From the NCBI RefSeq assembly GCF_055900595.2, contig NZ_CM148325.1: a stretch of 64,000 nucleotides of DNA, one strand, 5' to 3'. How positions within the stretch are numbered: position 1 is the first letter of the stretch; the number at the start of each line of letters is the position of its first letter. The position numbers and the translations under genes were made by a program. The notes beneath the pieces are model-generated. The model worked only from the letters and a program-made list of their open reading frames with translations, did not search any database and was not told the origin of the DNA. This document shows positions 58,730-60,268 of this stretch, piece after piece.

Positions 58730-59525
58730 TATTTATTCCTGAGAGAGGTAAACAACCTTGTTGTAATTGAAGCAAAAGATGCCGGTTTAACTGCCTTGCT
58801 GCCAGCGCCGGTTCTTGTGAAGTTGCAACGTAAAATTTATTGATTTCAACCCGATCATGGACTTCAACCGTAAAAAACGGCCTGGCAGGTGGAACGTCAT
58901 ACCATTTACTTTGTTTATCCAGCAGATGCTCGCTACAGCCGATCGTCACGATGCGTAAATCGCTGGCACAGCGCACGGCAATATTCGCCGCCCCGCGCTG
59001 CAGCGTCATTTTTTCACCGGGCTTCGTTCGCGTGCCTTCGGGGAAAATCAAGATAGTGTCGCCCTGTGCCAGTCGCTGTTGGCAGCGGGGTAACAGGGTT
59101 TCAGCTTCGCTGTTGATTAAATAATCTGCCGCCCGCACAACGCCGCCAAGAAAAGGATTTTTTAACAGCGCGCTTTTCACCAGGCAGTCAGTTTCTGGCA
59201 TGACTGACGCCAGCAGTACGTAATCGATAAGCGTGGGATGATTAGCTACGACGAGGCAACCGCGTTCCTGACGTAAAATTTCAGCGCCATCAATACGATA
59301 ATCCAGCACGCCAAGCCCTTTCGCGACAGTTAAAAACAGGCGAAAACTGGCGGCAATGCTGCGACGCGCCAAACGACGGCGGCGGGAAGTATCCCACACC
59401 AAAACTAACAATATGTTAAACCACACGACAGAAAGCAGCAGGCCGCCGAGACCAAACAGGGCAAAACACAACCCGGTCATAACCAGTCGCCATGTCCATT
59501 CCAGGCGTGACATCAGCTTACTCAT
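58704..59525 (-). CDS. apeD: Lysophospholipid (1-acyl-glycerol-3-phosphate-type) acyltransferase, APE cluster
   Basis: 273 aa; N-terminal TM, acyltransferase HX4D motif in VVANHPTLIDYVL. Confidence 0.7.
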   Translation of the reverse strand: MSKLMSRLEWTWRLVMTGLCFALFGLGGLLLSVVWFNILLVLVWDTSRRRRLARRSIAASFRLFLTVAKGLGVLDYRIDGAEILRQERGCLVVANHPTLIDYVLLASVMPETDCLVKSALLKNPFLGGVVRAADYLINSEAETLLPRCQQRLAQGDTILIFPEGTRTKPGEKMTLQRGAANIAVRCASDLRIVTIGCSEHLLDKQSKWYDVPPARPFFTVEVHDRVEINKFYVATSQEPALAARQLNRHLLLQLQQGCLPLSGINNASALSGN

Positions 59526-60268
59526 CTACGGCTCCAGCGCCACTGTACGCGCTCACCAGGAAGTGAAAAAGCATCTGAATTTTGTAAATAGTGCTGTAAA
59601 AACAACATGCTTTGCGGCAGTGTTGTTTCATTGCCCGCAATGGCTGGCTGTGTTTCACATTGCCACTCATCGCCAGCTTCAATCACCAGCGCAACAGCAT
59701 ATGGCCAGGTCGGCATTTCTGCTGGGAGCTGCGGATGATAGAACTCAGGTAGAAAGCCATCAAAATCGACCATCAACACGCGCTGGTATCCCGCTTGTAA
59801 CAGGCTAAGCACTTCACACAAACCTTGCTGGAAAGTGTCGCGACCAGCCGAAAGCGATGAGGAAACGATCGGTTGTTTGGCCGCAATGGTCAGGTTACCC
59901 ACGGAAGAGTTGTGTACGGAGAGCGCGAAGTCCGTCGGAGAGAGCGCCTGTTCGGTTGCCAGTGCATGAACAATGCGGTAATTGCGCTCCAGCTCGCCAT
60001 GACGACTGGTATACAAAACGGCGTCTGGCTGATGGTGGCGTAGCATTGCCAGACCGCACTCCACGGCCAGTTTGCTGCCAGAACTGAGACGGCGGGCGGT
60101 CATCATTGGCAGTTCACTTAATTTTGCCAACGGTGCGGCAGGGTCAACCGCCCACGGCTGGCGCGACCATGCTTGCCATTGCTGGGCTTCGCTAAGTCCA
60201 GGCGCCAGTGCCTTCCAGTCGGTAATATTTAATGTAAATTTCATCAACGCGCGCCCGCGGTAAACCAA
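59522..60268 (-). CDS. apeC: Ketosynthase-like protein lacking the active-site Cys (chain-length-factor-like partner), APE cluster; start may be the internal ATG at 60244
   Basis: 248 aa; the position of the KS xACSSS motif reads HNSS (Cys replaced by Asn). Confidence 0.65.
   Translation of the reverse strand: MVYRGRALMKFTLNITDWKALAPGLSEAQQWQAWSRQPWAVDPAAPLAKLSELPMMTARRLSSGSKLAVECGLAMLRHHQPDAVLYTSRHGELERNYRIVHALATEQALSPTDFALSVHNSSVGNLTIAAKQPIVSSSLSAGRDTFQQGLCEVLSLLQAGYQRVLMVDFDGFLPEFYHPQLPAEMPTWPYAVALVIEAGDEWQCETQPAIAGNETTLPQSMLFLQHYLQNSDAFSLPGERVQWRWSRR

What the first reader, a model, noticed from the sequence alone, without database searches (positions are those of the whole stretch)
59522..60268. 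Ketosynthase-like protein with Cys-to-Asn active-site replacement (chain-length-factor candidate)
The KS-like ORF is short (248 aa) and the position corresponding to the catalytic xACSSS motif reads HNSS, whereas the two full-length KS genes in the cluster retain the Cys. A catalytically dead partner subunit is the hallmark of type II PKS KS-CLF heterodimers. The same cluster has two hotdog dehydratase genes, consistent with a heterodimeric dehydratase as well.
Basis: seen in the sequence. Interest (0 to 1): 0.45.

Follow-up and report, generated by a model that had tools for sequence, protein, structure and literature searches.

The report
ApeC, the aryl-polyene chain-length factor

Summary
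The ORF at 59522..60268 (minus strand) is real. It is apeC of an intact aryl-polyene (APE) gene cluster, apeA to apeR, lying between yhhT and acpT. The likely start is the ATG at 60244, which gives 240 aa rather than 248.

**Identity.** The protein is 57.7% identical over its full length to ApeC of Xenorhabdus doucetiae, crystallised as the ApeO:ApeC ketosynthase/chain-length-factor heterodimer (PDB 6QSP_B, E = 8e-91). An AlphaFold model superposes on that chain at TM 0.95. RefSeq already names the gene "beta-ketoacyl synthase chain length factor".

**Support for the interpretation.**
- The window's ApeO matches 6QSP_A.
- The two hotdog proteins match the two chains of the ApeI:ApeP dehydratase, 6QSR.
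- So the chain-length-factor and heterodimeric-dehydratase readings are supported, and both are published.

**What is wrong.** The specific observation does not hold. Three profile alignments place H111-N112 (the "HNSS") opposite FabF V140-N141. The catalytic Cys aligns 23 residues later with Arg135, a variable position with no Cys in 116 family members. The HN dipeptide belongs to an invariant ApeC-family motif, SPxxFxxSVHN. ApeC also lacks the C-terminal thiolase half that carries the two catalytic His.

**Verdict.** Already known, low interest.

The parts
59522..60244 (-). apeC coding sequence (240 aa plus TGA). This is the half-size chain-length-factor subunit.
   Evidence: 6QSP_B E = 7.9e-91 over residues 1-239. 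Pfam PF13723. RefSeq CDS WP_032303956.1 'beta-ketoacyl synthase chain length factor' maps to exactly these coordinates. AlphaFold pLDDT 96.7. Foldseek 6QSP_B TM 0.95.
59903..59914 (-). It aligns with FabF V140-N141-M-V, not with the catalytic Cys.
   Evidence: same register. Read directly from the sequence.
59909..59941 (-). ApeC-family signature S102-P103-x-x-F106-x-x-S109-V110-H111-N112. It is invariant or nearly so in 116 diverse homologues and is homologous to FabF 'SPFFVPSTIVN'.
   Evidence: S, P, F, V, N 116/116; H 115/116. for the FabF alignment.
59840..59842 (-). Arg135 codon (CGC), the residue aligned with the catalytic Cys of FabF, FabB, ApeO and ApeR. It lies at the N-terminus of helix 134-150, after strand 127-131.
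   Evidence: hhalign. hmmsearch against FabF. DSSP of the AlphaFold model. The column is variable with 0 Cys in 116 sequences.
49194..50363 (-). apeO, the active elongating ketosynthase (catalytic Cys in 'STACSSS') and inferred partner of ApeC.
   Evidence: 6QSP_A E = 5.7e-174. NCBIfam NF006618 at 556 bits. RefSeq CDS. Cys column.
46776..48005 (-). apeR, the second full-length, FabF/FabB-like ketosynthase (Cys in 'SSACTSG'). It is homodimeric in the literature.
   Evidence: NCBIfam NF006587 at 780 bits. Alignment A2. PMC8358021.
48733..49197 (-). apeP, hotdog dehydratase subunit.
   Evidence: 6QSR_B E = 6.1e-48. RefSeq 'ApeP family dehydratase'.
55925..56278 (-). apeI, the second hotdog dehydratase subunit.
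   Evidence: 6QSR_A E = 4.4e-38. RefSeq 'ApeI family dehydratase'.
58209..58729 (-). apeF (58209..58460) and apeE (58472..58729), the tandem acyl carrier proteins.
   Evidence: NCBIfam NF003757 and NF006617. RefSeq.
58704..59525 (-). apeD, a lysophospholipid acyltransferase. Its ATG overlaps the apeC TGA (ATGA), which suggests translational coupling.
   Evidence: Sequence read. ORFs. RefSeq.
46776..61789 (-). The whole APE biosynthetic gene cluster, apeA to apeR: 18 genes on one strand, all intact.
   Evidence: RefSeq annotation of a 100%-identical strain. Gene order matches Table 1 of PMC8253772.
46187..46774 (-). acpT, a 4'-phosphopantetheinyl transferase immediately downstream of apeR. It is the enzyme reported to activate the ApeE/ApeF homologues of O157:H7.
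   Evidence: RefSeq. PMC8253772, citing De Lay and Cronan 2006.

Best explanation
The gene is apeC. It encodes a roughly 240-aa protein made of essentially one thiolase-fold half of a ketosynthase.

**Why it cannot condense.** It has no nucleophile: Arg135 sits where the KS Cys would be, in a column that varies across the family. It also lacks the C-terminal half that carries the two catalytic His.

**How it most likely works (by homology, not shown for this protein).**
- It forms a pseudo-symmetric heterodimer with the active ketosynthase ApeO.
- It occupies the place of the second KS protomer, completes the dimer interface, and closes the far end of ApeO's substrate tunnel.
- ApeO:ApeC can then elongate 4-hydroxybenzoyl-ACP with malonyl units to a defined polyene length. 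Reduction (ApeQ) and dehydration (ApeI:ApeP) happen between rounds.

**The HN dipeptide.** From general knowledge of FabF/FabB and actinorhodin KS-CLF structures, that segment lines the partner subunit's acyl pocket. It is therefore a candidate part of the pocket or interface, not an active-site substitution. This last step is inference.
For: - **Sequence and fold.** Full-length match to crystallised ApeC: 6QSP_B E = 7.9e-91 and 57.7% identity. The AlphaFold model (pLDDT 96.7) superposes on 6QSP_B at TM 0.95 and rmsd 1.4 A. The next hits are A. baumannii ApeC (7F28_A), the ishigamide CLF (6KXF_B), FabF, and the actinorhodin CLF 1TQY_B.
- **Domain and annotation.** Pfam PF13723 covers the whole model. 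RefSeq product name is 'beta-ketoacyl synthase chain length factor'.
- **Catalytic residues.** The Cys-equivalent is Arg135, in a consistent register. No Cys occurs in that column in 116 homologues.
- **Native length.** Family length is 227-272 aa, median 245, across 2,111 clusters at 50% identity, so the short size is native.
- **Selection.** Purifying selection between E. coli alleles, dN/dS 0.11.
- **Partner and context.** ApeO matches 6QSP_A at 5.7e-174. The full apeA-R gene order is present.
[quoted passage not shown] Chain length is set by pocket depth (PMC9006962).
Against: - Nothing was measured for this E. coli protein. The heterodimer, its stoichiometry and any effect on chain length are inferred from orthologues that are 58% (Xenorhabdus) and about 25-33% (Acinetobacter) identical.
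- The primary biochemical paper (Grammbitter et al. 2019, JACS) is not in the held library, so it is cited only through later papers.
- The hhalign probability is low (14%, E = 0.002) because the KS profile had only four sequences. The Cys-equivalent could therefore be off by one residue (Gly134), although three methods agree on Arg135.
- NCBIfam has no HMM hit for the protein.
Confidence: 0.93

Rival explanations
1. One reading: ApeC is a KS whose catalytic Cys has been replaced by Asn (HNSS in place of ACSS), analogous to the Cys-to-Gln change of type II PKS KS-beta.
For: A BLASTP segment pairs 'LSVHNSS' with ApeO 'LSTACSS'.
Against: - That segment scores 12.3 bits with E = 18.
- Three profile-based alignments put HN opposite FabF V140-N141 and the Cys opposite Arg135, 23 residues downstream.
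- In the model, H111-N112 lie in a loop between helices 103-107 and 113-122, not at a strand-to-helix elbow.
Confidence: 0.03
2. ApeC is chiefly a structural or solubilising partner that stabilises ApeO. It does not itself determine chain length, so 'chain-length factor' is a name borrowed by analogy.
For: - No ApeC pocket mutant that changes chain length is reported in the papers read here.
- The cavity end is described as formed by one ApeO residue and one ApeC residue (PMC8358021).
- ApeR also influences throughput and product length.
Against: - The review states that ApeO-ApeC product length is set by pocket depth (PMC9006962).
- Glu144, nearly invariant (107/116) in the ApeC helix that follows the elbow, may be the cavity-closing Glu142 that PMC8358021 names in A. 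baumannii ApeC. It aligns with residue 120 of chain 7F28_A, so the numbering offset is unresolved.
Confidence: 0.15
3. The ORF is a truncated remnant (pseudogene) of a full-length ketosynthase.
For: It is about 60% of the length of ApeO and ApeR and lacks the C-terminal half.
Against: - The same roughly 240-aa architecture is found in 2,111 protein clusters at 50% identity and in two crystal structures.
- dN/dS is 0.11.
- The stop overlaps the start of apeD (ATGA), and the downstream DNA encodes an acyltransferase, not a KS C-terminal half.
Confidence: 0.01
4. ApeC is a member of the canonical aromatic type II PKS KS-beta family (actinorhodin type), with a malonyl-ACP decarboxylase priming role.
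For: Foldseek finds 1TQY_B at E = 1.9e-7, TMq 0.63.
Against: - It has 240 aa rather than about 400.
- There is no sequence-level hit to 1TQY_B even with the family profile at E <= 10.
- The Cys-equivalent is Arg, and Gln occurs there in only 8 of 116 family members.
- apeC lies about 9 kb from apeO and is coupled to apeD.
- The starter unit is 4-hydroxybenzoate loaded by ApeH, so decarboxylative priming is not needed (PMC8253772).
Confidence: 0.02

Closest known systems
ApeC of Xenorhabdus doucetiae (PDB 6QSP chain B), the chain-length factor of the aryl-polyene type II PKS
   Same: - Full-length collinear homologue: 57.7% identity, 239 versus 240 aa.
- Same fold (TM 0.95).
- Same SPxxFxxSVHNSSVGNLTI and SAGxD motifs.
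- Same position in the gene cluster, between apeB and apeD.
- Same partner-type KS: ApeO matches 6QSP_A at E = 5.7e-174.
   Different: It comes from a different host and is an allele of a cluster whose product has a slightly different head group or length. There is no biochemical data for the E. coli protein of this window.
ApeC of E. coli CFT073 (c1202) and O157:H7 (O-island next to acpT)
   Same: - Same gene in the same species: 93.9% DNA identity to a UPEC-type copy and 90.0% to an O157-type copy (one search gives 92.1% protein identity to the latter).
- Same cluster order.
   Different: - This window's allele is rare: 99% identity or better in only 8 of 5,426 complete genomes.
- The CFT073-type cluster sits in a different chromosomal context, next to cdiBA.
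- The O157-type cluster has internal stops in apeH and apeD.
AbApeC of Acinetobacter baumannii (PDB 7F28 chain A)
   Same: Same family (E = 5.6e-45 with the family profile). It is a half-size CLF made of one thiolase domain, in a heterodimer with ApeO.
   Different: - About 20 N-terminal residues shorter.
- About 25% identity.
- Three-residue deletion right at the elbow, where it reads 'SLSC-SW' against 'SLSAGRDTF'.
Iga12 (ishigamide CLF, 6KXF_B) and the actinorhodin KS-beta/CLF (1TQY_B)
   Same: Both are catalytically inactive KS-like subunits that pair with an active KS and delimit its substrate tunnel. Fold similarity is detectable (E = 7e-9 and 1.9e-7).
   Different: - They are near full-length (about 360-400 aa, two thiolase halves).
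- They are encoded next to their KS.
- The actinorhodin CLF has Gln at the Cys position.
- No sequence-level similarity to ApeC is detectable.
E. coli FabF / FabB (elongating ketosynthases)
   Same: The N-terminal thiolase half is homologous: ApeC 41-165 aligns with FabF 59-194. This includes the RRxS / RKM helix, the SPxxxxxxxxN segment, and the strand-elbow-helix.
   Different: FabF and FabB are homodimeric, about 410 aa, and have a Cys-His-His triad. ApeC has none of the three catalytic residues.

Membership tests
ApeC-type half-size chain-length factor (Pfam PF13723; NCBI name 'beta-ketoacyl synthase chain length factor') | End-to-end match to the PF13723 model | tested here: met
   E = 7.9e-67, model positions 1-223 of 223.
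ApeC-type half-size chain-length factor (Pfam PF13723; NCBI name 'beta-ketoacyl synthase chain length factor') | Full-length sequence and fold similarity to a crystallised ApeC | tested here: met
   6QSP_B E = 7.9e-91, 57.7% identity. Foldseek TM 0.95, rmsd 1.4 A.
ApeC-type half-size chain-length factor (Pfam PF13723; NCBI name 'beta-ketoacyl synthase chain length factor') | About 240 aa, essentially one thiolase half, lacking the His-His-bearing C-terminal half of a KS | tested here: met
   240 aa. Family median is 245 aa. hhalign covers only FabF 59-194. PMC8358021 gives the same description of the architecture.
ApeC-type half-size chain-length factor (Pfam PF13723; NCBI name 'beta-ketoacyl synthase chain length factor') | No nucleophile at the position of the KS catalytic Cys | tested here: met
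   Arg135 lies opposite FabF Cys164. The column has 0 Cys in 116 sequences. Register uncertainty is one residue at most, and Gly134 is also not a nucleophile.
ApeC-type half-size chain-length factor (Pfam PF13723; NCBI name 'beta-ketoacyl synthase chain length factor') | Family-invariant residues R51, R52, S102, P103, F106, V110, N112 (H111 nearly invariant) | tested here: met
   All are present in the window protein.
ApeC-type half-size chain-length factor (Pfam PF13723; NCBI name 'beta-ketoacyl synthase chain length factor') | Encoded in an APE cluster together with an ApeO-type KS, ApeR, ApeE/F, ApeI/P, ApeQ and ApeM | tested here: met
   The core gene list is as in bioRxiv 10.1101/2020.12.19.423268.
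ApeC-type half-size chain-length factor (Pfam PF13723; NCBI name 'beta-ketoacyl synthase chain length factor') | Forms a stable heterodimer with ApeO and delimits the product chain length | not testable with these tools
   Known for the X. doucetiae and A. baumannii orthologues only. No complex prediction or experiment is available here.
Canonical aromatic type II PKS KS-beta / CLF (actinorhodin type) | Near full-length KS-like protein (about 400 aa, two thiolase halves) | tested here: not met
   240 aa. TM normalised to 1TQY_B is 0.39.
Canonical aromatic type II PKS KS-beta / CLF (actinorhodin type) | Gln in place of the catalytic Cys | tested here: not met
   Arg135. Gln occurs in 8 of 116 family members at that column. 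The defining feature itself is from established knowledge.
Canonical aromatic type II PKS KS-beta / CLF (actinorhodin type) | Gene immediately downstream of the KS-alpha gene and often translationally coupled to it | tested here: not met
   apeC (59522..60244) is about 9.2 kb upstream of apeO (49194..50363) and overlaps apeD instead. The feature is as stated in PMC9006962.
Active elongating ketosynthase (FabF/FabB/ApeO type) | Cys-His-His catalytic triad | tested here: not met
   No Cys at the elbow, and the protein has no region homologous to the His-bearing half.
   48733..49197 matches 6QSR_B at 6.1e-48. 55925..56278 matches 6QSR_A at 4.4e-38. Physical heterodimerisation was not testable here.

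The most novel reading that the evidence does not exclude
The invariant His111-Asn112, within SPxxFxxSVHN, is conserved in 115-116 of 116 ApeC homologues that are only about 30-50% identical overall. It is not conserved in FabF, FabB, ApeO or ApeR. It may therefore be a dedicated functional site of the half-size chain-length factors. It could, for example, line ApeO's tunnel and contact the growing aryl-polyene or the ACP-bound intermediate, rather than being merely structural. None of the papers read here reports mutagenesis of it.
Probability: 0.2. Interest if true: 0.3.

Novelty: already known. Interest (0 to 1): 0.08.

Why it matters
Nothing new for the field. ApeO:ApeC and ApeI:ApeP were solved and reconstituted in 2019-2021, the E. 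coli cluster has been dissected genetically, and RefSeq already labels the gene as a chain-length factor.

The useful outcome is a correction. The inactive state of ApeC is not a Cys-to-Asn point substitution. ApeC lacks both the nucleophile (a variable residue, Arg135 here) and the entire His-bearing half of the fold. The conspicuous HN dipeptide belongs to a separate, family-specific invariant motif. That motif could be a sensible target for mutagenesis if someone wanted to test how the half-size factor shapes the ApeO pocket.

Tried and rejected
- **Pairwise BLASTP.** ApeC against ApeO and ApeR gave nothing significant (best E = 0.17 and 1.8, on unrelated segments).
- **NCBIfam.** No family hit for ApeC, although PGAP names the gene.
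- **ApeC-family profile against PDB sequences at E <= 10.** It reached only one full-length KS-like chain, 9s5h_C at E = 0.41. That hit was used only as a register check.
- **Primary paper.** Grammbitter et al. 2019 (JACS, doi 10.1021/jacs.8b10776) is not held, so its claims are cited through PMC8358021, PMC8253772 and PMC9006962.
- **Residue-level structural superposition.** Not possible, because the tools return only scores for model comparisons.
- **Readings considered and rejected.**
  - N-terminal extension into a longer protein: in-frame stop 13 codons upstream of the TTG.
  - Pseudogene remnant: conserved length and dN/dS 0.11.
  - KSQ-like decarboxylase: no conserved Gln and no His.
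- **Glu142 of AbApeC.** I could not settle whether the 'Glu142' named in PMC8358021 as closing the cavity is the nearly invariant Glu144 of this protein. It aligns with residue 120 of chain 7F28_A, so the numbering offset is unresolved.
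Full report
**What is at the coordinates.**
On the minus strand an ORF runs from a TTG at 60268 to a TGA at 59522-59524, 248 codons. It translates to LVYRGRALMKFTLNITDW... An in-frame stop lies 13 codons upstream of the TTG, and the preceding gene ends at 60285, so the protein cannot be extended N-terminally.

The ninth codon is an ATG at 60244. Three things point to it as the real start, giving 240 aa:
- Met1 of the crystallised homologue aligns there.
- Met1 of almost all 116 diverse homologues aligns there.
- The RefSeq CDS in a 99.9-100% identical strain starts there.

The TGA stop overlaps the ATG of the next gene (ATGA), a lysophospholipid acyltransferase. Residue numbers below use the 240-aa numbering.

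**What the protein is.**
- It matches Pfam PF13723 ('Beta-ketoacyl synthase, N-terminal domain') end to end, E = 7.9e-67.
- Against all PDB sequences, the best hit is 6QSP chain B: 239 aa, E = 7.9e-91, aligned 1-239 to 1-239, 57.7% identical. The second hit is 7F28 chain A (E = 1.4e-14).
- An AlphaFold model built on 116 homologues has mean pLDDT 96.7.
- Foldseek places that model on 6QSP_B at TM 0.95 and rmsd 1.4 A. The entry is titled 'Ketosynthase (ApeO) in Complex with its Chain Length Factor (ApeC) from Xenorhabdus doucetiae'. Next come 7F28_A/C, the ishigamide CLF (6KXF_B), many FabF structures, and the actinorhodin CLF 1TQY_B.
- RefSeq names the gene 'beta-ketoacyl synthase chain length factor' in every E. 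coli genome listed.

**Context.**
The gene sits in an 18-gene, single-strand cluster (46776..61789) that follows the published apeA-apeR order gene for gene (Table 1 of PMC8253772; RefSeq annotation):

| Gene | Function |
|---|---|
| apeA | lipoprotein |
| apeB | methyltransferase |
| apeC | this gene |
| apeD | acyltransferase |
| apeE, apeF | acyl carrier proteins |
| apeG | membrane protein |
| apeH | adenylating enzyme |
| apeI | dehydratase |
| apeJ | glycosyl/acyltransferase |
| apeK | thioesterase |
| apeL | LolA-like protein |
| apeM | MMPL transporter |
| apeN | DUF3261 protein |
| apeO | ketosynthase |
| apeP | dehydratase |
| apeQ | ketoreductase |
| apeR | ketosynthase |

- acpT follows immediately at 46187..46774. 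It is the phosphopantetheinyl transferase reported to activate the ApeE/F homologues of O157:H7 (PMC8253772, citing De Lay and Cronan 2006).
- ApeO matches 6QSP_A at E = 5.7e-174.
- The two dehydratase-type hotdog proteins match the two chains of 6QSR: ApeP with chain B at 6.1e-48, and ApeI with chain A at 4.4e-38.

**Checking the specific observation.**
Pairwise BLASTP between ApeC and ApeO or ApeR is not significant. The HNSS/ACSS pairing appears only as a 12.3-bit segment with E = 18.

I collected representatives of the family: 2,111 clusters at 50% identity have E <= 0.001. I aligned 116 full-length members, 27-53% identical to the query (A1), and compared this profile with an alignment of E. 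coli FabF, FabB and the window's ApeO and ApeR (A2).

hhalign gives one collinear alignment of ApeC 41-165 with FabF 59-194 (E = 0.002). It is ungapped from residue 110 onward:

- ApeC: VHNSSVGNLTIAAKQPIVSSSLSAGRDTFQQGL...
- FabF: [33 protein letters not shown]...

In this register H111-N112 pair with FabF V140-N141, and FabF Cys164 (precursor numbering; Cys163 of the mature protein) pairs with Arg135. Two further checks agree:
- The same register comes from the family HMM against FabF alone and against PDB chain 9s5h_C.
- In the model, Arg135 is the second residue of helix 134-150, directly after strand 127-131. That is the strand-nucleophile-helix elbow of thiolase-fold enzymes. H111-N112 lie in a loop between two helices.

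Column 135 is variable (E, A, R, K, Q, V, T, P...) with 0 Cys in 116 sequences. Columns 130-134 have at most 3 Cys. The window protein's own three Cys (63, 143, 196) fall in non-conserved columns.

So the conclusion 'no catalytic Cys' stands, but the residue named is wrong. ApeC also has no counterpart of the KS C-terminal half that carries the two catalytic His, as PMC8358021 describes for the A. baumannii and X. doucetiae proteins.

**What the HN dipeptide is.**
S102, P103, F106, V110 and N112 are invariant, and S109 and H111 nearly so, in the 116 homologues. This segment is homologous to FabF 'SPFFVPSTIVN'. H and N are not conserved in FabB, ApeO or ApeR.

From general knowledge of FabF/FabB and actinorhodin KS-CLF structures, this segment of one protomer lines the acyl pocket of the other. 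I therefore regard the motif as a likely part of the interface or pocket wall. That is an inference, not a result.

**Mechanism.**
By homology, ApeC replaces the second protomer of a KS dimer. It forms a pseudo-two-fold heterodimer with ApeO and closes the end of its substrate cavity. ApeO then performs the decarboxylative condensations on 4-hydroxybenzoyl-ACP.

- In A. baumannii, ApeO-ApeC alone gave the fully elongated polyene in vitro, and ApeR raised throughput (PMC8358021).
- A review states that chain length is set by pocket depth (PMC9006962).
- In E. coli CFT073, all genes except perhaps apeR appear to be needed for full assembly (PMC8253772).

For the protein in this window, only sequence, predicted fold and gene context are shown. 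Heterodimer formation and chain-length control are inferred.

**Membership.**
All testable defining features of the ApeC-type half-size CLF family are met. The features of a canonical actinorhodin-type KS-beta are not met. Those features are roughly 400 aa, Gln at the Cys position, and a gene adjacent and coupled to the KS-alpha gene. ApeC therefore works like a CLF but is not a member of that family.

**Population notes.**
- The apeC sequence occurs in 824 of 5,426 complete E. coli genomes. Only 8 match at 99% identity or better.
- The cluster is found in two chromosomal contexts:
  - between acpT and yhhT, as here and in O157-type strains;
  - in a UPEC-type island next to cdiBA.
- apeC is the most divergent gene of the cluster against an O157-type copy: 90.0% DNA identity and dS 0.37, compared with 0.07-0.32 for the other genes. 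It is still under purifying selection, with dN/dS 0.11.

**Verdict.**
It is a real, short KS-like gene without a catalytic Cys. The residue assignment is wrong, and the start is 8 codons too early.
- All of it is already published and annotated, so interest is low.

Noticed in passing
window 46187..62000, compared with L004 (NZ_CP024650.2) and L005 (NZ_CP034799.1): E. coli carries the APE cluster in two different chromosomal contexts. One is between acpT and yhhT (this window and O157-type strains). The other is a UPEC-type island flanked by a PTS/LacI operon and cdiBA. About 15% of complete genomes (820-824 of 5,426) have the cluster; the rest have acpT alone.
   Followed up: partly
L005 10769..12130 and 13208..14029 (O157-type strain 2009C-4687); window equivalents 56265..57626 and 58704..59525: In the O157-type copy, apeH (the adenylating starter enzyme) and apeD (an acyltransferase) each carry an internal stop and are flagged as pseudogenes. 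All 18 genes are intact in the window, so the O157-type cluster may be non-functional.
   Followed up: partly
window 59522..60244: apeC is the most divergent gene of the cluster against the O157-type copy: 90.0% DNA identity, 92.1% protein identity and dS 0.37, while neighbouring apeB and apeD have dS 0.07-0.09. This suggests a mosaic or recombinant history inside the cluster. Against the UPEC-type copy, apeG, apeH and apeI are the divergent block instead.
   Followed up: partly
window 50363..50372, 56278..56308, 57626..57665: The longest ORFs of apeO (392 aa), apeI (127 aa) and apeH (466 aa) start upstream of the RefSeq starts (389, 117 and 453 aa). As with apeC, the mechanical ORF start is probably not the real one.
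   Followed up: no
window 18045..18127 and 18278..18362 (minus strand): There are two adjacent copies of the AgrB antisense sRNA (Rfam RF02891, about 90 bits each). This fits the known agrA/agrB-dinQ region between arsR and gor.
   Followed up: no
window 7770..7801 (plus strand): Match to the shuA/chuA 5' UTR RNA thermometer (RF02597, 60.1 bits against a gathering score of 58). It implies a haem-uptake chu locus in the left part of the window. A marginal ES036 sRNA hit lies at 27141..27181.
   Followed up: no
PDB chain 7F28_A compared with window residues 130-138 (59831..59857): A. baumannii ApeC reads 'SLSC-SW' where the E. coli and Xenorhabdus proteins read 'SLSAGRDTF' / 'SVSAGIDSF'. It has a three-residue deletion and a Cys right next to the elbow. 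The Cys is not conserved in the family (at most 3 of 116 in any neighbouring column).
   Followed up: partly
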